Shown piece by piece: positions 11,718 to 17,537 of a stretch of DNA of 18,293 bases. How positions within the stretch are numbered: position 1 is the stretch's first letter; each line of letters begins with the position of its first letter. A model generated the notes under the pieces. It was not told the origin of the DNA. It saw nothing but the letters and a program-made list of their open reading frames with translations, and made no database searches. The stretch is from a virus: the UHGV virus genome UHGV-0114973; one strand, 5' to 3'. The translations under genes were made by a program, and so were the position numbers.

Positions 11718-12125
11718 ATGAGTAACTTTAAATTCAGTCAGAGAAGTGAAAATAATCTGAAAGGGGTTAACCCGGATCTTGTGAAAATCGTGCGTCGGGC
11801 ACTTCTGTTATCACCCGTTGATTTCGGTATCACAGAAGGTTTACGAACTGTTGAACGACAACGACAACTGGTTGCGGCAGGTAAGAGGCAGACGATGAAC
11901 AGTAGCCATATCACGGGTCATGCTGTTGATGTGTTTGCCTACCCTACATCAGCCGGGTCATGGGAATGGAAATACTACGAACAGATCGCCACTGCATTTA
12001 AACAGGCTGCAAAAGAACTGAATATTCCTGTTGAATGGGGCGGTGACTGGAAAACACTGAAAGATGGTCCACACTTCCAGTTACCATATGCGAAATATCC
12101 GGCGCGAGATAACAATCATGGATAA
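11718..12125 (+). CDS. endolysin, L-alanyl-D-glutamate peptidase (peptidase M15 / VanY-like)
   Basis: 135 aa with SHITGHAVDV and a following Asp/His pattern matching the zinc-binding motifs of T5-type M15 endolysins. GGGAG ribosome-binding site. Followed by holin and spanin genes. Confidence 0.85.
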   Translation: MSNFKFSQRSENNLKGVNPDLVKIVRRALLLSPVDFGITEGLRTVERQRQLVAAGKRQTMNSSHITGHAVDVFAYPTSAGSWEWKYYEQIATAFKQAAKELNIPVEWGGDWKTLKDGPHFQLPYAKYPARDNNHG

Positions 12126-12348: not shown

Positions 12349-12733
12349 TGTGTTAATCACCGTTGTTGCAACTGTTCTGGTATTAGGCGCTGGTGCGTAC
12401 ACGTGTTACCACGCGGGATATAAAGCACGGGCAAATGAAGAACGTCAGGAACGTTTAGAGGATGCACAACGGGAACAACAACGGTTAAAAGCACAACAGG
12501 AATTGGCTGATGATGTACTTCGTGGTTTAGCTGACTGGTCGCAGAATACTAAAATCGTGGAAATACGACATGAAAAGACTAATACTGTTTTTCGTAACGA
12601 GTGTCTTACTTCTGAATATCAACGCTTGTACAACGAACGAGTTACCGAAGCAGAAGCCCGTTTATCAGGCCGCATTAGTTCAGAAGTGTCAGACCGAAAA
12701 CCTTCCACGGCTGAACGGTCTGACAGGAAGTGA
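12335..12733 (+). CDS. i-spanin (Rz-like inner-membrane spanin subunit)
   Basis: 132 aa. N-terminal transmembrane segment (VLITVVATVLVLGAGAY) followed by a charged coiled-coil periplasmic region. Contains an out-of-frame o-spanin ORF. Confidence 0.65.
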   Translation: MTTRSVLITVVATVLVLGAGAYTCYHAGYKARANEERQERLEDAQREQQRLKAQQELADDVLRGLADWSQNTKIVEIRHEKTNTVFRNECLTSEYQRLYNERVTEAEARLSGRISSEVSDRKPSTAERSDRK

Positions 12734-12818
12734 TTCAACAGATGTTAATGACCAGTGGTTAGATATTTATTTCAAATGTGCAACTATTCACAACGCATTA
12801 GTAGACAGTCTTCAGTAA
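12570..12818 (+). CDS. o-spanin (Rz1-like outer-membrane lipoprotein), overlapped arrangement
   Basis: 82 aa starting in the +1 frame inside the i-spanin gene and running 85 nt past its stop. Signal peptide MKRLILFFVTSVLLLNINAC with a lipobox-like Cys, though Asn at position -2 is atypical. Confidence 0.65.
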   Translation: MKRLILFFVTSVLLLNINACTTNELPKQKPVYQAALVQKCQTENLPRLNGLTGSDSTDVNDQWLDIYFKCATIHNALVDSLQ

Positions 12819-13031
12819 ATCTTCAACCGATACTTCAATCCACGATGCGGGAACCGGATATTCAGTCCGGTACATGAACAAGGATGTTCCTATCAACCCG
12901 TGTGGATCTGTTTTAATCCCTCGCATGTTCAACAATGGAAAAAACTGTTCGCGTGTTTGTGGCAATCTTGCAAAGCGTCCTGTCGGGCGTTTAGCAGGAT
13001 CCATAGGGTTGAATTCAACGATTGTGGACAT
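12798..13031 (-). CDS. hypothetical protein (77 aa), last gene of the minus-strand operon
   Basis: ATG at 13031-13029 with AGGAG 8 nt upstream. Overlaps the Dam-like gene's 3' end by 17 nt and the o-spanin 3' end convergently by 21 nt. Confidence 0.4.
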   Translation of the reverse strand: MSTIVEFNPMDPAKRPTGRFARLPQTREQFFPLLNMRGIKTDPHGLIGTSLFMYRTEYPVPASWIEVSVEDLLKTVY

Positions 13032-13536
13032 AACAATAACTCCTGTACGCTTGTCTTTTTATTTTCTGATAGTCGGAAACTTTTACAGATCTTGTTTTAC
13101 ATTCACCAATACGATGTGGGTCGAAAATAAACATCATCTGTGAACGGTCATTTCCTCCTGCTGGTAACCCGGTGTCAGGGTCTACAAACGCTATACGGCC
13201 TTTAAACACCCATAGTTCCGAACAATGTGTCAGTGCTTTGTGAAACCAGTCTGCAGACGTCATAGCGTTCACGAGTAATAACGAACCAGTTCCCTGATGA
13301 ACAGTGGTTATTATTTTATTAACCCAGGGAGACGGATCGCTATACGGTGGGTTGCACCAGACGAACCCACCACCATTACTTTGAACAATCGAATGCCAGT
13401 CTTTATTCAGACTATCAGTGATAAATAACGAACATTTAGCGTTAGAACCATCGGTACACACATCAAGAACAAGTGGGAATTCACGAGAAACGTTATCAAT
13501 AAAATCCCACGGTGTTTCCCAGTTGTCTTTAGCCAT
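13015..13536 (-). CDS. phage Dam-like DNA N6-adenine methyltransferase (orphan)
   Basis: Motifs WETPWDF, LDVCT, the catalytic CNPPYS (the N6-adenine methyltransferase DPPY-type motif) and WFHK. Start taken at the ATG 13536 (MAKDNWETPWDF) rather than the TTG at 13596. No restriction enzyme partner is visible. Confidence 0.8.
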   Translation of the reverse strand: MAKDNWETPWDFIDNVSREFPLVLDVCTDGSNAKCSLFITDSLNKDWHSIVQSNGGGFVWCNPPYSDPSPWVNKIITTVHQGTGSLLLVNAMTSADWFHKALTHCSELWVFKGRIAFVDPDTGLPAGGNDRSQMMFIFDPHRIGECKTRSVKVSDYQKIKRQAYRSYCYVHNR

Positions 13537-13882
13537 GTTCCGGTACGCTCTCCACACTGTAATAAACGGGGATGCCCAGACGTTCAGCTTCTGCAATTTC
13601 TGCTAGCGTACCAGACGAACGACGATAATCAGGAAGCACCAGAACAGCGTCACAGCGGCGCATAATTTCTAACGTACCTGATAGGTAGTATTCAGGTTGT
13701 ATATTGCGTAAACCGCCGTCAAAATCCCACAATTCGGTGTTCTTGTGAGGAATAACCGGGAACCATCCCGGACGTTGTAAAGCCAGTCGTTTACCTGCCT
13801 GTTCAGCGCGTGACACGTTACGGGATGTTTTAAGCGCACAATCAGCACGATAAGGCCCGGCAATGTAACAGAGTTTAATCAT
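13529..13882 (-). CDS. nucleoside 2-deoxyribosyltransferase-like (NDT / DUF1937-type fold) protein
   Basis: Start taken at the ATG 13882 (MIKLCYIAGPY...) with AGGAAA 6 nt upstream. N-terminal YIAGP motif and a later D...SSGTLAEIAEAERLGIPVYY segment match my recollection of the two signature segments of the deoxyribosyltransferase / Rcl-type Rossmann fold. Overlaps both neighbours by 8 nt. Confidence 0.6.
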   Translation of the reverse strand: MIKLCYIAGPYRADCALKTSRNVSRAEQAGKRLALQRPGWFPVIPHKNTELWDFDGGLRNIQPEYYLSGTLEIMRRCDAVLVLPDYRRSSGTLAEIAEAERLGIPVYYSVESVPEHG

Positions 13883-14210
13883 GGTTGTTTTCCTGCATCT
13901 GTAAGAACACAATCATTGCGGCACGGAGTGGGTTAGCGTGAGAACAATAAATTGTAGGTTCGTTAATCATATCCCAACCACATTGATCAAATTCAAAATC
14001 ACCCCAGGCTAACCATTCGTTTTCATTAGTGTCAAACGCAATGCTAATCTTATTTTCAATAATAATCGGCATTGCGTCTGTAGGGTTATTGCAGTAATCA
14101 ACTACTTGATTCACCAGTTCCAGACGATGTTCGTGTGATGGTTCACCGTATAATTTACGACTAACCATTGCGTTGATTGAAATATCACTTAAAACACTGT
14201 AATCAGTCAT
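13875..14210 (-). CDS. small strongly acidic protein (111 aa), DNA-mimic / anti-restriction candidate
   Basis: ATG at 14210-14208 with GAGGGAA upstream, overlapping the previous stop (ATGACTGA). I count about 18 Asp+Glu against 5 Lys+Arg, so the predicted pI is near 4. No recognisable catalytic motif. Confidence 0.5.
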   Translation of the reverse strand: MTDYSVLSDISINAMVSRKLYGEPSHEHRLELVNQVVDYCNNPTDAMPIIIENKISIAFDTNENEWLAWGDFEFDQCGWDMINEPTIYCSHANPLRAAMIVFLQMQENNHD

Positions 14211-14739
14211 GACGATTCATTCCCTCTAACATGTCCCAGATAAGCGCAACACGGCGCGGATCCGTGCTGATAGTGTGTAAAGTTTCACACCCGTAATGCC
14301 ATCCCCAGCGAACGGATAGTTCTGACAACAGGTAACCACGGGAATTAGCCAGCTCAGCCAGTTCACCGGGTTTAAATGTCGTTGTATTAGGTTCTGTAAG
14401 AACACGAGTACCACAGATAGCGTCACTGATGCGCCACGGTTTCATCAGGTCATCAACCTTATACCAGTTACTGATACTGATTTCAGACGTTCCCCAGCGT
14501 GCAGCCAGTTTCAGACGTTCCTGACGGGCCGGGAACATTGGCATCTGTGGTAAACGCAGTTGGATCTGTTCTGCAGGTTCAAACATGTCGTCGTCTGTTA
14601 AACGAAATTCACCACGGTCATCAATATAAAAACCACGGGAACGACCATCACGGGTGAACCCGTCAACACGGTTGTAAATTTTACCGGGAGTAAAGACACC
14701 AATCGGTGAACCAGCTACAAATTTGTGTGAAGTATGCAT
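14203..14739 (-). CDS. hypothetical protein (178 aa)
   Basis: ATG at 14739-14737 with GAGG 8 nt upstream, 39 bp downstream of the PolB stop. Coding-quality ORF translationally coupled to the next gene. No family recognised by eye. Confidence 0.5.
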   Translation of the reverse strand: MHTSHKFVAGSPIGVFTPGKIYNRVDGFTRDGRSRGFYIDDRGEFRLTDDDMFEPAEQIQLRLPQMPMFPARQERLKLAARWGTSEISISNWYKVDDLMKPWRISDAICGTRVLTEPNTTTFKPGELAELANSRGYLLSELSVRWGWHYGCETLHTISTDPRRVALIWDMLEGMNRHD

Positions 14740-14778: not shown

Positions 14779-16635
14779 TTACCGAAGTGGTGCAACGAGT
14801 TTTTCAGCTTCTTTGATGTAAAAATCATAATTGAGCGTTGCCCGGTTAAAACGTTTCATGTCGTTACATTCCGTGGTCAACCAACCTTTGCACACGGACA
14901 TACGGCGCTCAGGCGCGTCAGGGTTCAGTTTCAGTGATTTTGCCAGCGGTGGCATGACTTTTGTCAAAGGTGCACCATCTGTACTGACGTAATAACGGGT
15001 AATGTTCTGAACCTGTTTATCACCCCATAGTAATTTGCTGTTACGTGGTACTTTCGTCACTAACATGAAATCGTGAATATCTTCGTGTGATGTTATAAAA
15101 TCACGAATGTCTTTATTGTGTACCAGTGCTGCTTCAGCCGCTTTTGCGACAACCTGCATACTGTGGTTTTGATGCCAACCCAGATCAACGCTGTGACAAT
15201 AAGCGCCTTTACGTTTAACTTTCTTACCGCCTTCGTAAACAGCGATGTAATTATTTACATCGCGGATAAACATCACGTCATAAATTGCTTCTTCAAGCTG
15301 GAGTCTGGTTAATTTTTCCCACGCGTGACGAACCTGTTCTACTTGTCCGGTAAACACTCGTGGCACGTAAACCGTAAGACCATCTGTGTTAGCCTGGATC
15401 ATGGACAAACCAGGGATTTTCAGAAGTTCTTCAGCCAACATACACAAAAGTAACTGTCCGTTAATCGTAATAGCCATTGTGTAAGCAGGATCGTAGAATG
15501 GACTGTATACGTTATTACTGTCACCATACACACCGTTTAACGCCAGTTTTAACATTGCATTTTCTGGTGTACCTTTCGGGTAACTGGAACGCATGTCGTA
15601 AACATTTTTATAAATGGTGCAAAATTGTTTTCCCAGATGTGCCGGATAAAGTTCATTACTGATCGCAAGGTTCGGATAAAAACTGGCAACGTCCAGATCG
15701 ATGATCACATAATTTTCAGTGGACCTGATAGTTTGAGACTCAATAGACCCGTGGATACCACCCGTACCAAAATCAAACGAGAACCCGTTAATGTCTGCGC
15801 TTAAATCTGTGAATACACCTTTTGTTTCAGTGATAACCTGTTGACGTAACCAGTTAAGAACACGATTAAATTCAGGCTGTTCAAAACGGACATAAGGGAA
15901 AATCACACTGTTCAATGCGATTGATGGTCTGTGCGTCTGTCGTGGTTTTCTGCTACCCGGTTCGAAACATTGAATACCTGATTTTTCAAGTTCCATGATG
16001 AAATATTCTTTACCGATTTTCGTGTCGTTATGGTTCATGAAATTACGACCGTATTTAGCAGAAAGTTCACGACGAAAATCTATCAGCTTTTTACTGTGTT
16101 TATAAAACATCAAAGTCGCTTTCAAATCGTGCATCAGATATTGACGAAGCGTATCAATTTGAGAATCGGTTAAATAAGTCCCTGGCGTAAACGGAAGGTC
16201 TTCAATGTTTTCCATTCTCATATTGAATTCAAGTGTTTTCAGACTTGTTCGTTTTGCCTGATTGTCGAAATGATGAATTTTATACAAATCAAGCTGGGGA
16301 ACTATCCAGTCTTTTTCCCACACCATATGAGCAAAACGATTTTCATCACCAGCGTTAATTATTGAATCACCTTTTTTATAAATGTCTGCGTTGGTGATAT
16401 ACATGATGTTGTTCAAAATAGAATGCTGAACAGGATAGTCGTAACCCAGATTGTTATAACCAATTTCTTCAGCACGATGTTCACGCAAATATTCTGTGAA
16501 CAGGTAAAAAGCCTGACGATCATCGCGACGATGTGAAATCTCAAAAATATAAGGCGTTTCGGTTAACGCGTGAATAGCACCGAACAGAAAAACATTAGGA
16601 TAGTTTTCAATATCGTGAACGTAAGCATCTGACAT
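14779..16635 (-). CDS. compact family-B DNA polymerase with a 3'-5' exonuclease domain
   Basis: 618 aa. Exo I D8-I-E10; Exo II N62-L-G-Y-D66; Exo III Y166-L-M-H-D170 (spacing close to phi29 DNA polymerase); motif A D315-V-A-S-F-Y-P (Dx2SLYP-type); motif B K363-L-A-L-N-G-V-Y-G (Kx3NSxYG-type); motif C N416-T-D418 (an NTD variant of DTD). Motifs are only 48 and 55 aa apart and no TPR-like insertions are evident. Confidence 0.7.
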   Translation of the reverse strand: MSDAYVHDIENYPNVFLFGAIHALTETPYIFEISHRRDDRQAFYLFTEYLREHRAEEIGYNNLGYDYPVQHSILNNIMYITNADIYKKGDSIINAGDENRFAHMVWEKDWIVPQLDLYKIHHFDNQAKRTSLKTLEFNMRMENIEDLPFTPGTYLTDSQIDTLRQYLMHDLKATLMFYKHSKKLIDFRRELSAKYGRNFMNHNDTKIGKEYFIMELEKSGIQCFEPGSRKPRQTHRPSIALNSVIFPYVRFEQPEFNRVLNWLRQQVITETKGVFTDLSADINGFSFDFGTGGIHGSIESQTIRSTENYVIIDLDVASFYPNLAISNELYPAHLGKQFCTIYKNVYDMRSSYPKGTPENAMLKLALNGVYGDSNNVYSPFYDPAYTMAITINGQLLLCMLAEELLKIPGLSMIQANTDGLTVYVPRVFTGQVEQVRHAWEKLTRLQLEEAIYDVMFIRDVNNYIAVYEGGKKVKRKGAYCHSVDLGWHQNHSMQVVAKAAEAALVHNKDIRDFITSHEDIHDFMLVTKVPRNSKLLWGDKQVQNITRYYVSTDGAPLTKVMPPLAKSLKLNPDAPERRMSVCKGWLTTECNDMKRFNRATLNYDFYIKEAEKLVAPLR

Positions 16636-16656
16636 AATAAAACCCTGATAAGTAAA

Positions 16657-16674
16657 TGGGGCACTATGGCCCCA
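16657..16674 (-). other. hairpin between the 273-aa gene and the PolB gene
   Basis: TGGGGC, loop ACTATG, GCCCCA. On the minus strand it is followed by TTTACTTATCAGGGTTTTATT directly before the PolB ATG. May act as an attenuator or processing site. Confidence 0.3.
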
Positions 16675-16715
16675 TGTCTGTTTAAAGCGGTATATCGTCC
16701 CAGTTCCAGTAACTA

Positions 16716-17537
16716 TCAGTAACCGTTACCGTTGAGAAAATTCGGGGCCGGGGTGGTCATTACCATATAACCATTAGCAATCAGTTGTTCATCGTTCCAA
16801 CCTTGCGCAATAAACTGTTCGTAAGTTGCACCACCTGCTTTTTCAGTCATTACTTTTACAGGTGCTGCCGCTGGTGTAGGCGCTGCTACAGGTGCTGCCG
16901 CTGGTGTAGGCGCTGCTACAGGTGCTGCCGCTGGTGTTACGCCGATCGGACGTGCACCTTCAGGCATTGCAGGAGCAGCGCCAAACACAGAGGCAGGAGC
17001 CGGACCGGAAATGATTTCTTCACCCGCATAAAGCAATTGCGCCATTTCCATGTTGATATACACACCAGCCTGGTTACCTGTACGACCGTTTGCAACAGAT
17101 GATCCGCTGATACGGTAGTAATAACCTTTTTTCGCCAGATTTTTATCAATAACTGGCTGGTACGCTGCGTTATAAACCGGACACGCGTCAATAGCCACGT
17201 TGCGTGAGAAACCAATTACCCAGTGACCAGCATAACCAGTTTTACTCGCATGTTTCGGATCATCACCGTTAATAATTTTCCATGCGAAAGTAGGTTGTTG
17301 TGGTTCGCCGTTCACATAGTGTGAGTTCGCCGCTCGCATAATCGCCTGGAATACCGCACCCAGTTCACCTTGTTCTTCCCACCAGTTCGCCGCTGTTTTA
17401 GGAAACGCCAGACCAACCCACCAGTTGTGTTTTTCAGGTGCTAACGGTTTATTTTCGTGGTCATGAGTGTTGATATCGAAAAAAGAACCGCCAACCAGAC
17501 GACCAACCGGAGTTACAAAAGATTCTTTCTGTGCCAT
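16716..17537 (-). CDS. replication-associated protein with a PA-rich repeat linker; possibly an ssDNA-binding protein
   Basis: 273 aa with AGAAGG ribosome-binding site 8 nt upstream. The N-terminus MAQKESFVTPVG loosely resembles the start of T7 gp2.5-type SSBs, which is weak evidence. Three tandem PAAAPVAAPT units form a linker before a short C-terminal domain. Sits directly upstream of PolB in the same operon. Confidence 0.45.
   Translation of the reverse strand: MAQKESFVTPVGRLVGGSFFDINTHDHENKPLAPEKHNWWVGLAFPKTAANWWEEQGELGAVFQAIMRAANSHYVNGEPQQPTFAWKIINGDDPKHASKTGYAGHWVIGFSRNVAIDACPVYNAAYQPVIDKNLAKKGYYYRISGSSVANGRTGNQAGVYINMEMAQLLYAGEEIISGPAPASVFGAAPAMPEGARPIGVTPAAAPVAAPTPAAAPVAAPTPAAAPVKVMTEKAGGATYEQFIAQGWNDEQLIANGYMVMTTPAPNFLNGNGY
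16861..16937. repeat. 30-bp tandem repeat, about 2.6 copies
   Basis: GGTGCTGCCGCTGGTGTAGGCGCTGCTACA occurs at 16861-16890 and 16891-16920, with a partial third copy at 16921-16937. It lies inside the 273-aa gene and encodes the PAAAPVAAPT repeats. Confidence 0.9.

What the first reader, a model, noticed from the sequence alone, without database searches (positions are those of the whole stretch)
12798..14739. Translationally coupled five-gene cassette: unknown 178 aa, acidic 111 aa, NDT-like, Dam-like methyltransferase, unknown 77 aa
Five small genes on the minus strand overlap one another by 8-17 nt, between PolB and the lysis cassette. Two are recognisable: an orphan Dam-like methyltransferase, and a deoxyribosyltransferase-fold protein (a fold that hydrolyses or exchanges bases on deoxynucleotides and that binds nucleotide signals in some immune effectors). 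The others are a highly acidic small protein and two unknowns. This gene mix fits either a counter-defence island (methylation, DNA mimic, nucleotide-signal sponge) or a nucleotide/DNA modification pathway feeding the adjacent polymerase. Both are hypotheses, and I do not recognise the combination as a described system.
Basis: inference. Interest (0 to 1): 0.7.

Follow-up and report, generated by a model that had tools for sequence, protein, structure and literature searches.

The report
Tail end of phage replication operon
The five overlapping genes are real, but they are the ordinary, already annotated end of the DNA-replication operon of a 9NA/Sasha-type E. coli phage: three lineage-conserved genes frame two swap-prone slots holding an orphan DNA methyltransferase and a NinX protein, and nothing points to a new defence-evasion or DNA-modification system.

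Summary
Five minus-strand genes lie at 12798-14739, overlap by 8/8/8/17 nt, and sit between a family-B polymerase and the lysis genes.

The window comes from a Sashavirus/Nonanavirus (9NA-like) siphophage, 94-98% identical to published E. coli phages. Gene order is Pol, g178, [NinX slot], DUF4406/DUF7768 (NDT fold), [methyltransferase slot], g77. This order holds in all 24 9NA-like records. Without NinX, it also holds in Proteus and Morganella relatives.

- **Frame genes:** g178, DUF4406 and g77 are conserved. DUF4406 is about as conserved as the polymerase.
- **Variable slots:** NinX alleles are mosaic, missing or duplicated. The ancestral PF01555 methylase is replaced here by a PF05869 Dam-type enzyme. 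Two near-identical phages carry an extra Macro-domain gene.
- **DUF4406:** it keeps the invariant Tyr/Asp/Glu triad of NDT enzymes, so it looks like an enzyme, probably a dNMP N-glycosidase, not a signal sponge.
- **NinX:** its fold matches only uncharacterised phage proteins, not DNA mimics.
- **Phenotype:** KarinMuster (Bas82) carries the same gene set, with its own NinX allele, and is reported as markedly sensitive to restriction systems. That argues against DNA hypermodification.

Best reading: distal replication-operon genes plus an accessory-gene hotspot. Interest is low to moderate.

The parts
14203..14739 (-). g178: a lineage-restricted 178-aa protein directly downstream of the polymerase gene. 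It is a frame gene of unknown function, with a possible helix-turn-helix at residues ~66-97 (RLKLAARWGTSEISISNWY).
   Evidence: There is no Pfam, NCBIfam or PADLOC hit, only phrog_19205 of unknown function. Only 7 clusters were found among 1.8 billion representatives. It is present next to Pol in 31 phage records at 29-100% identity. It is under purifying selection. Sub-threshold HTH and homeodomain hits in homologues all fall on one segment. The AF2 model is poor, with pLDDT 52.8.
13875..14210 (-). NinX / DUF2591 family protein, 111 aa, pI 4.3. It occupies a variable accessory slot and its function is unknown.
13529..13882 (-). DUF4406/DUF7768 protein, 117 aa, of the nucleoside 2-deoxyribosyltransferase (NDT) clan. 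It is a frame gene and a probable (deoxy)nucleotide N-glycosidase or transferase.
   Evidence: PF24963 scores 7e-9 and PF14359 scores 4e-7, both above cut-off. PF05014 is below cut-off. phrog_355 also matches. Invariant residues in 47 diverse homologues are Y6, G9, N22, A26, P45, R76, C77, D78, V80, S89, G91, E95 and A99. Y6, D78 and E95 align with the Tyr/Asp/Glu of T. brucei NDT 2A0K, and E95 and S89 align with MilB 4JEN. The same D...SxG..AE motif is present in the characterised phage dAMP hydrolase domain DmtZ of phage Wayne (PMC12884076). Identity is 60-99% across the superclade, against 57-99% for Pol.
13015..13536 (-). Orphan DNA N6-adenine methyltransferase of the phage Dam family, 173 aa, with NPPY at residues 62-65. 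It occupies the exchangeable methyltransferase slot.
   Evidence: PF05869 scores E 8e-32. TIGR01712 scores 93.9 bits, just under its cut-off of 97.05. The best PADLOC hit is 'orphan methyltransferase'. Only 6 phage records share it at >95%; the other 1332 are below 60%, and the best of those listed are <=38%. In 9NA, Sasha, Klebsiella, Proteus and Morganella phages the same slot holds PF01555 enzymes.
12798..13031 (-). g77: a conserved 77-aa protein of unknown function. It is the last gene of the leftward operon, and its 3' end overlaps the 3' end of the convergent o-spanin ORF (12570-12818, +) by 21 nt.
   Evidence: There are no family hits except phrog_25980 of unknown function. It is 86-100% identical in all 24 9NA-like records, with 38-41% homologues in Proteus Isfahan and Morganella Henu15. 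It is under purifying selection. The overlap follows from the coordinates and the o-spanin annotation.
14779..16635 (-). Family-B DNA polymerase, the upstream neighbour. A 39-nt gap to g178 holds no predicted terminator or promoter on the minus strand, so the cassette is probably co-transcribed with it.
   Evidence: phrog_1252 scores 1.7e-215. There are weak PDB hits to archaeal PolB and E. coli Pol II. The literature places Sashavirus/Nonanavirus in a PolB clade (PMC11348598). The promoter/terminator scan is.

Best explanation
The five genes are the promoter-distal end of the leftward early (DNA replication) operon of a 9NA/Sasha-type virulent siphophage. They are not one dedicated system.

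Three genes are lineage-core 'frame' genes:

- **g178:** possibly a helix-turn-helix DNA-binding protein that travels with the polymerase.
- **DUF4406/DUF7768:** an NDT-fold enzyme with an intact Tyr-Asp-Glu catalytic triad and a Ser-x-Gly phosphate-type motif. It most likely hydrolyses, or transfers the sugar-phosphate of, a deoxynucleoside 5'-monophosphate, and so edits the nucleotide pool during replication.
- **g77:** function unknown.

Between these lie two recombination-prone slots that carry exchangeable accessory cargo:

- **A NinX-family protein:** function unknown, with a phage-specific fold.
- **An orphan DNA methyltransferase:** here a Dam-family N6-adenine enzyme that displaced the ancestral PF01555 enzyme. 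It presumably methylates phage DNA to block the subset of restriction enzymes that recognise its target site.

**Shown:** gene structure, family membership, synteny, slot exchange, invariant catalytic residues and the NinX fold class.

**Inferred:** co-transcription, the enzymatic activity and substrate class of DUF4406, the protective role and target site of the methylase, and the HTH in g178.
For: - **Identity of the phage:** the region is 94-98% identical to Escherichia phages PDP46, AVIO78A, KarinMuster_Bas82 and PJ16, and 85% identical to Salmonella 9NA. It lies between the PolB gene and the lysis cassette, downstream of the exonuclease and Gp2.5-like SSB genes on the same strand.
- **Synteny:** g178 occurs in 31 phage records and g77 in 24. 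In all ten fetched loci both lie in the same order next to Pol.
- **Differential conservation:** identity to the window is 57-99% for Pol, 60-99% for DUF4406, 29-100% for g178 and 35-100% for g77 (tblastn; 38-41% in the MAFFT alignment). NinX is 38-71% or absent.
- **Methyltransferase slot:** PF01555 enzymes of 259, 372, 393, 399, 443 and 517 aa occur in relatives, against the PF05869 Dam here.
- **Extra cargo:** a Macro-domain gene sits in the same junction in PJ16 and BDX09P1.
- **Operon structure:** there is no minus-strand promoter inside the cassette and no terminator between Pol and g178.
- **DUF4406 as an enzyme:** its invariant residues align with the NDT catalytic residues. The same motif is present in the biochemically characterised phage enzyme DmtZ (PMC12884076).
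- **DUF4406 context:** homologues sit in replication, recombination or early modules of 9 independent phage lineages. Neighbours include RusA+SSB, RNaseT+PolA, 5'-3' exonuclease+MazG+helicase, RecT and VapE primase, and the homologue in phage Chi is gp41.
- **Orphan status of the methylase:** its best PADLOC model is 'orphan methyltransferase'.
- **Phenotype:** KarinMuster has no broad restriction resistance (PMC11990801).
Against: - No biochemical or genetic data exist for any of the five proteins or their close homologues.
- The substrate of DUF4406 is unknown. A dNMP hydrolase has no obvious benefit in a phage with canonical DNA.
- DUF4406 abuts the methyltransferase gene in every member of this superclade, whatever the methylase family. 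g77 also follows the methylase. A functional link among these three is therefore not excluded.
- The HTH call for g178 rests only on sub-threshold hits, and its structure model failed.
- Co-transcription is inferred from consensus scans only.
- The Dam family member is <=38% identical to the nearest listed enzymes outside its own six-record clade, so a GATC target is an assumption.
Confidence: 0.6

Rival explanations
1. All five genes form a dedicated counter-defence island: protective methylation, NinX as a DNA mimic or inhibitor, the NDT-fold protein as a sponge or degrader of immune nucleotide signals, and g178 and g77 as further inhibitors.
For: The locus does exchange accessory cargo. This includes methylases of two families, mosaic NinX alleles and an inserted Macro-domain gene in PJ16 and BDX09P1. 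NinX is acidic, with pI 4.3. NDT/SLOG-type folds bind nucleotide signals in some immune effectors (general knowledge).
Against: g178, DUF4406 and g77 are stable core genes of a superclade whose polymerases have diverged to ~60% identity, and DUF4406 is about as conserved as Pol. That is unlike fast-evolving inhibitors. DUF4406 keeps an invariant catalytic triad and lies in replication modules elsewhere. NinX shows no structural similarity to known mimics or inhibitors. [quoted passage not shown]
Confidence: 0.12
2. The cassette is a nucleotide or DNA base-modification pathway that supplies the adjacent polymerase with a non-canonical nucleotide. The model is DmtZ, an NDT-like enzyme that makes dZMP in 2-aminoadenine phages.
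For: A phage NDT-superfamily enzyme (DmtZ) was recently shown to hydrolyse dAMP and transfer deoxyribose-5-phosphate to a modified base (PMC12884076). The window protein shares its D...SxG..AE motif and lies two genes from the polymerase. The second NDT-in-dZ-phage report is.
Against: The annotated early regions of the 96%-identical phage PDP46 hold no PurZ/PurA-like, DatZ, MazZ or dUTPase-like gene. KarinMuster has no recognisable modification locus and is RM-sensitive. 9NA DNA is cut by restriction enzymes. DUF4406 homologues occur next to PolA, or in phages with no polymerase nearby.
Confidence: 0.06
3. DUF4406, the methyltransferase and g77 form a functional trio. The N-glycosidase handles a by-product or substrate of methylation, for example by clearing methylated dNMPs released from degraded DNA or by removing S-adenosylhomocysteine. 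g77 modulates the methylase.
For: In all ten loci fetched from this superclade, DUF4406 directly precedes the methylase and overlaps its start in the nine annotated ones. This holds whether the methylase is PF05869 or PF01555. g77 or its homologue follows, except where a Macro gene is inserted. A methylase lies within 4 kb of DUF4406 in 3 of 7 distant metagenomic contexts. In PDP46 a second methylase is directly followed by another small Rossmann-like SLOG (YAcAr) protein. Mammalian DNPH1 clears an epigenetically derived nucleotide (general knowledge).
Against: In 9 independent lineages outside the superclade the methylase is never the immediate neighbour of DUF4406. Adjacency inside one superclade can be inherited synteny alone. 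The C5-methylase/SLOG pairing is absent from 9NA. No enzyme of the NDT fold is known to act on SAH.
Confidence: 0.12

Closest known systems
Genes 60-64 of Salmonella phage 9NA and their counterparts in Sasha, AVIO78A, PDP46, PJ16 and KarinMuster_Bas82 (published, annotated genomes)
   Same: The order, strand and overlapping junctions are the same: Pol, hypothetical 178 aa, NinX, 'nucleoside 2-deoxyribosyltransferase / DUF4406', DNA methyltransferase, hypothetical 77 aa, then a convergent lysis cassette. g178 is 100% identical to Sasha gp61, and g77 is 100% identical in six records.
   Different: The window carries the Dam-type (PF05869) methylase of the E. coli subclade, not the PF01555 enzyme of 9NA and Sasha. 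Its NinX allele is only 71% identical to that of PDP46. It lacks the Macro-domain gene seen in PJ16 and BDX09P1.
The nin region of lambdoid phages (P22 NinX; Dam-family methylase next to NinE in Stx and lambda-like phages)
   Same: It has the same kind of content: small, overlapping, dispensable-looking early genes that include NinX (PF10765) and a PF05869 methylase.
   Different: This phage is virulent with its own PolB replisome. The genes lie at the end of the replication operon, not between replication genes and an antiterminator Q. The other nin genes (NinB, NinE, NinG/RusA and others) are absent here.
NDT superfamily enzymes: nucleoside 2-deoxyribosyltransferases, DNPH1/Rcl, MilB, and the phage enzyme DmtZ
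   Same: The window protein has the Rossmann-like NDT clan signature. The catalytic Tyr/Asp/Glu positions are invariant, and a Ser-x-Gly precedes the catalytic Glu as in the 5'-phosphate-specific members MilB and DmtZ (PMC12884076).
   Different: It falls in the separate Pfam families DUF7768 and DUF4406 and misses the PF05014 cut-off (17.5 against 28.8 bits). It is only 117 aa. No PurZ-type partner genes are present. Its activity and substrate are untested.
Phage orphan Dam methyltransferases (PF05869 / TIGR01712, e.g. those of T1 and Stx phages)
   Same: The family HMM match is strong, the NPPY motif is present, no cognate nuclease is adjacent, and the gene is in an early region.
   Different: It is <=38% identical to the nearest listed member outside its own six-record clade and sits just under the TIGR01712 equivalog cut-off. 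A GATC target therefore cannot be assumed.

Membership tests
Phage Dam DNA N6-adenine methyltransferase (PF05869 / TIGR01712) | Matches the family profile above the curated cut-off | tested here: met
   PF05869 scores 110.7 bits against a cut-off of 28.1, E 8e-32. The stricter TIGR01712 equivalog scores 93.9 against 97.05, just below.
Phage Dam DNA N6-adenine methyltransferase (PF05869 / TIGR01712) | (D/N)PPY catalytic motif of amino-methyltransferases | tested here: met
   NPPY lies at residues 62-65 of the 173-aa product (translation; read directly from the sequence).
Phage Dam DNA N6-adenine methyltransferase (PF05869 / TIGR01712) | Methylates GATC | not testable with these tools
   Identity to the nearest listed members outside its own clade is <=38%. 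GATC is not depleted in the window, with 54 observed against 69 expected. Methylome sequencing or DpnI/MboI digests are needed.
Phage Dam DNA N6-adenine methyltransferase (PF05869 / TIGR01712) | Orphan, with no cognate restriction endonuclease | tested here: met
   The neighbours are DUF4406 and g77. Neither has a nuclease or defence-system hit, and the best PADLOC model is 'orphan methyltransferase'.
NDT superfamily (nucleoside 2-deoxyribosyltransferase / DNPH1 / MilB / DmtZ) | Profile match to an NDT-clan family | tested here: met
   DUF7768 scores 36.3 against 26 and DUF4406 scores 30.8 against 22. The canonical PF05014 is not met, at 17.5 against 28.8. The family profile weakly hits 1T1J (DUF1937) and T. 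brucei NDT 2A0K.
NDT superfamily (nucleoside 2-deoxyribosyltransferase / DNPH1 / MilB / DmtZ) | Catalytic triad Tyr / Asp(Asn) / Glu nucleophile | tested here: met
   Y6, D78 and E95 are invariant in 47 homologues. They align with YIAGP, CDAV and GTAFE of 2A0K and with the catalytic Glu region of MilB. The triad definition comes from PMC12884076.
NDT superfamily (nucleoside 2-deoxyribosyltransferase / DNPH1 / MilB / DmtZ) | 5'-phosphate pocket (small or Ser residue) rather than the Asp/Asn that holds a 5'-OH, which separates dNMP hydrolases from nucleoside transferases | tested here: inconclusive
   The invariant S89-x-G91 aligns with the S-P-G of MilB and the S-W-G of Wayne DmtZ. The alignments are weak (E 0.03-0.3) and no structure model was made.
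NDT superfamily (nucleoside 2-deoxyribosyltransferase / DNPH1 / MilB / DmtZ) | N-glycosidic bond cleavage or transfer activity | not testable with these tools
   This needs purified protein and a (d)NMP/nucleoside panel.
NinX / DUF2591 (PF10765) | Profile match above cut-off | tested here: met
   The score is 35.2 bits against 22.6, covering residues 4-106. 189 homologues were found, almost all annotated PF10765.
DNA-mimic anti-restriction proteins (Ocr, ArdA type) | Fold or sequence similarity to a known mimic, with an elongated, highly acidic surface | tested here: not met
   The confident NinX model (pLDDT 87.9) matches only the uncharacterised phage proteins 1R7L, 4PUP and 4QYB, plus weak dsRBD-like topology hits. 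Net charge is about -13, which is acidic but not diagnostic.
Phage sponges or degraders of immune nucleotide signals (Tad1/Tad2, Acb1/Acb2, Apyc1 type) | Homology to a known sponge or degrader family | tested here: not met
   None of the five proteins has a Pfam, PHROG or NCBIfam hit of that kind. The NDT-fold protein has conserved catalytic residues instead. Binding itself is not testable here.
2-aminoadenine (dZ) biosynthesis module with DmtZ | Co-occurrence with PurZ/PurZ0 and a dATP/dGTP-hydrolysing enzyme (DatZ, MazZ or DutZ) | tested here: not met
   No such genes appear in the annotated 31.4-56.5 kb of the 96%-identical phage PDP46. By contrast, phage Wayne has the PurA-like gene next to DmtZ-DutZ. 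KarinMuster is RM-sensitive.

The most novel reading that the evidence does not exclude
DUF4406/DUF7768 may be an uncharacterised, widespread class of phage nucleotide N-glycosidase or phosphodeoxyribosyltransferase. It occurs in 211 cultured phage records, including the Chi-like phages, and is about as conserved here as the polymerase. Its substrate could be a specific non-canonical or methylated dNMP. In the 9NA/Gorganvirus superclade it would work with the adjacent methyltransferase and g77 as a conserved DNA-methylation support module, either by sanitising the pool of methylated nucleotides from degraded DNA or by removing a methylation by-product.
Probability: 0.15. Interest if true: 0.6.

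Novelty: new member of a known kind. Interest (0 to 1): 0.3.

Why it matters
As it stands, the finding re-describes a gene block that has been in GenBank since the 9NA genome of 2014. It adds one more allele combination.

Two aspects have some value. First, the locus is a clean natural example of in-situ exchange of methyltransferases, NinX alleles and a Macro-domain gene between fixed frame genes. That makes it a convenient place to look for counter-defence cargo in this phage group.

Second, DUF4406/DUF7768 is a small, catalytically intact NDT-fold protein that is highly conserved in many enterobacterial phages and has never been assayed. The first phage NDT-like enzyme, DmtZ, was characterised only in 2026. 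If DUF4406 turned out to have a defined nucleotide substrate, it would add a new step to phage nucleotide metabolism. KarinMuster (Bas82) is publicly available in the BASEL collection, so the genetics is directly testable.

Tried and rejected
- **g178 structure:** AF2 with 8 sequences gave pLDDT 52.8, too poor for a fold search. A full HMM scan of 1.8 billion representatives found only 7 clusters, so no deeper alignment is available.
- **g178 function:** Pfam and PDB profile searches gave only sub-threshold HTH and homeodomain hits. I kept this as a lead, not a result.
- **Literature:** searches for NinX, DUF2591, DUF4406, DUF7768 and DUF1937 found no functional study. The main 9NA-like genomics paper (PMC6819911) is not held.
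- **PADLOC:** only the methylase gave hits.
- **Strict DUF4406-methylase coupling:** rejected as a general rule, because the two are not adjacent in 9 independent lineages.
- **Cassette as a mobile island:** rejected. There are no flanking repeats, integrase or tRNA, and the frame genes are lineage-core.
- **Rfam:** no structured RNA was found in the window.
- **dZ-type pathway:** considered and rejected.


Full report
**1. What is in the sequence**

The ORF list and the reverse-strand sequence show five minus-strand ORFs at exactly the reported limits.

| Gene | Coordinates | Size |
|---|---|---|
| g178 | 14203-14739 | 178 aa |
| NinX | 13875-14210 | 111 aa |
| NDT-fold protein | 13529-13882 | 117 aa |
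| Dam-type methylase | 13015-13536 | 173 aa |
| g77 | 12798-13031 | 77 aa |

The mechanical ORF list starts the third and fourth at upstream TTG codons. The ATG starts give the lengths annotated in near-identical phages.

The junctions overlap by 8, 8, 8 and 17 nt, and each start has a purine-rich Shine-Dalgarno-like run. Comparison with 9NA and Klebsiella relatives shows a strong excess of third-position substitutions in g178, g77 and the NDT-fold gene. The two 'unknowns' are therefore real genes under purifying selection.

Short overlaps are also seen among the plus-strand tail-gene ORFs of the window. They persist at these junctions in relatives that carry different genes in the slots. They indicate tight operon packing, not a special feature of these five genes.

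**2. Where the window comes from**

The 2.1-kb region is 94-98% identical to Escherichia phages PDP46, AVIO78A, KarinMuster_Bas82 and PJ16, and to two 'Sashavirus' assemblies. It is 85% identical to Salmonella phage 9NA.

These are virulent siphophages of about 53-60 kb. In them the block lies at the end of a leftward operon. That operon runs helicase, exonuclease, Gp2.5-like SSB and DNA polymerase, then converges on the lysis cassette.

The polymerase has no Pfam hit. It weakly matches archaeal PolB and E. coli Pol II in the PDB. The literature places the Sashavirus/Nonanavirus clade among PolB phages (PMC11348598).

A consensus scan finds no minus-strand promoter inside the cassette. It also finds no terminator in the 39-nt gap after the polymerase gene. 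Co-transcription is likely but not shown.

**3. Synteny: frame genes and slots**

g178 occurs in 31 phage records and g77 in 24. In all ten loci I fetched, both lie in the same position. tblastn against these ten loci gave the following identities to the window.

| Gene | Identity to window | Note |
|---|---|---|
| Pol | 57-99% | |
| NDT-fold protein | 60-99% | |
| g178 | 29-100% | |
| g77 | 35-100% | |
| NinX | 38-71% | absent in PJ16, Proteus Isfahan and Morganella Henu15; two copies in Klebsiella phage BU9 |

The methyltransferase position is always occupied, but by different enzymes. In 9NA, Carvaje, phi_KPN_H2, BU9, Isfahan and Henu15 it holds PF01555 N6/N4 methylases of 259-517 aa. Only the E. 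coli subclade, including this window, has the PF05869 Dam-family enzyme.

PJ16 and BDX09P1 are otherwise about 97% identical to the window. They carry an extra 146-aa Macro-domain gene (PF01661, E 9e-20) between the Dam gene and g77.

g77 has 38-41% homologues after the methylase in the Proteus and Morganella phages.

The picture is three conserved frame genes (g178, DUF4406, g77). They bracket two positions where accessory genes are exchanged.

**4. The individual proteins**

*Methylase.* PF05869 matches at E 8e-32, and TIGR01712 falls just under its cut-off. An NPPY motif lies at residues 62-65, and the best PADLOC model is 'orphan methyltransferase'. Outside its six-record clade, the nearest listed relatives are <=38% identical. 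The usual GATC assignment is therefore unproven. GATC is not avoided in the window.

*NDT-fold protein.* It belongs to DUF7768 and DUF4406 and misses the canonical PF05014 threshold. An alignment of 47 diverse homologues has these invariant residues: Y6, G9, N22, A26, P45, R76, C77, D78, V80, S89, G91, E95 and A99.

In profile alignments to T. brucei NDT (2A0K) and MilB (4JEN), Y6, D78 and E95 fall on the Tyr, Asp and Glu of the NDT catalytic triad. The triad is as defined in PMC12884076. The S89-x-G91 preceding the Glu matches the arrangement in the 5'-phosphate-specific enzymes. It also matches the DmtZ domain of Arthrobacter phage Wayne (hhalign, weak, E 0.03).

Homologues occur in 211 cultured phage records. 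About 100 of these are Chi-like phages. In nine independent contexts they lie in early, replication or recombination modules. A methylase is nearby in three of these contexts but is never the immediate neighbour.

This pattern fits a conserved enzyme of nucleotide metabolism. The most likely activity is a dNMP N-glycosidase or phosphodeoxyribosyltransferase. It does not fit a signal sponge.

*NinX.* PF10765 matches above its cut-off. The family shows conserved N- and C-terminal helices with a mosaic, indel-rich middle.

Nothing links NinX to known DNA mimics. No functional study was found.

*g178.* This is a lineage-restricted ORFan, with 7 clusters among 1.8 billion representatives. Its model failed. 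Sub-threshold HTH and homeodomain hits in several homologues, and in a PDB profile search, all fall on residues ~66-97. This is a lead for DNA binding, no more.

*g77.* There are no hits beyond its own PHROG.

**5. Published phenotype**

KarinMuster (Bas82) has the same gene set at the same junctions. This includes 98-100% identical g178, DUF4406, Dam and g77, together with its own NinX allele at 42%. The BASEL authors state that no recognisable additional locus for DNA modification exists in this phage and its relatives. [quoted passage not shown]

9NA virion DNA is cleaved by restriction enzymes (PMC4153490). The annotated early regions of PDP46 contain no PurZ-type or dATPase-type genes.

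These points argue against a hypermodification pathway and against broad anti-restriction activity. A methylase that protects only its own target site remains compatible.

**6. Interpretation**

The best-supported reading (confidence ~0.6) is that the five genes are the distal part of the replication operon. Three core genes and two cargo slots make up the block.

- The methylase slot is the clearest counter-defence element.
- NinX and the Macro gene seen in relatives may be further cargo.
- DUF4406 is probably a nucleotide-pool enzyme.
- g178 may be a DNA-binding factor associated with the polymerase.

The rivals are a coherent counter-defence island (~0.12), a base-modification pathway (~0.06) and a DUF4406-methylase-g77 functional trio (~0.12).

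The trio idea draws on the invariant adjacency inside the superclade. It also draws on a second methylase-plus-SLOG pair elsewhere in PDP46. It is weakened by the lack of adjacency in other lineages and by the absence of that second pair in 9NA.

**7. Novelty and score**

The block is annotated in several published genomes, and its recognisable members belong to known families. It is a new member, by allele combination, of a known kind of phage early accessory region. What remains open is the biochemical function of DUF4406, NinX, g178 and g77. Interest is 0.3.

Noticed in passing
L005:1205-1645 (phage PJ16) and L020:453-893 (Sashavirus BDX09P1); the corresponding window junction is 13015-13031: Two phages about 97% identical to the window carry an extra 146-aa Macro-domain gene (PF01661, E 9e-20) inserted between the Dam gene and g77. 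The window has only a 17-nt overlap at that point. Macro domains bind or remove ADP-ribose, so this is a candidate counter-defence insertion (for example against DNA or protein ADP-ribosylation).
   Followed up: partly
L025:7929-9001 and L025:11435-12004 (phage PDP46, outside the window): In the rightward early region of the close relative PDP46, a gene annotated as a cytosine-specific methyltransferase (no Pfam hit at E<=0.01) is directly followed by a 131-aa SLOG-family protein (PF10686 YAcAr, E 1e-19). An HD_4-domain protein annotated as RelA/SpoT-like lies further on. The methylase-SLOG pairing is absent from 9NA.
   Followed up: partly
window 16857-16937: A perfect 30-nt tandem repeat of 2.7 copies (TACAGGTGCTGCCGCTGGTGTAGGCGCTGC) lies inside the Gp2.5-like SSB gene (16716-17537, minus strand). 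The Sasha record annotates a tandem repeat region in the same gene. The protein length varies among relatives (273 aa here, 331 aa in PDP46).
   Followed up: no
window 16656-16675: A 7-bp GC-rich hairpin (ATGGGGC...GCCCCAT) lies in the gap between the SSB and polymerase genes and scores as terminator-like on both strands. It may be an attenuator or an RNA-processing site within the leftward operon.
   Followed up: no
window 12798-12818: The 3' end of g77 (minus strand) and the 3' end of the o-spanin ORF (12570-12818, plus strand, embedded in the i-spanin gene) overlap by 21 nt. The two convergent transcription units therefore meet with no intergenic space.
   Followed up: no
whole window: Several 4-nt palindromes are strongly under-represented against the mononucleotide expectation of about 69: CTAG 5, TCGA 23 and AGCT 28. 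GANTC is 33 against 69. GATC (54) and GTAC (63) are near expectation, and TGCA (102) and ACGT (98) are over-represented.
   Followed up: no
window 13875-14210 and alignment A3: NinX family members are intragenic mosaics. Some homologues share the window's C-terminal two-thirds exactly but have a different N-terminal third, and others show the reverse. This points to frequent recombination inside the gene.
   Followed up: partly
window 11718-12125: By its sequence motifs and the PJ16 annotation, the endolysin here looks like an L-alanyl-D-glutamate peptidase. The 96%-identical phage PDP46 has a glycosyl-hydrolase endolysin at the same position, so the lysis cassette is also mosaic.
   Followed up: no
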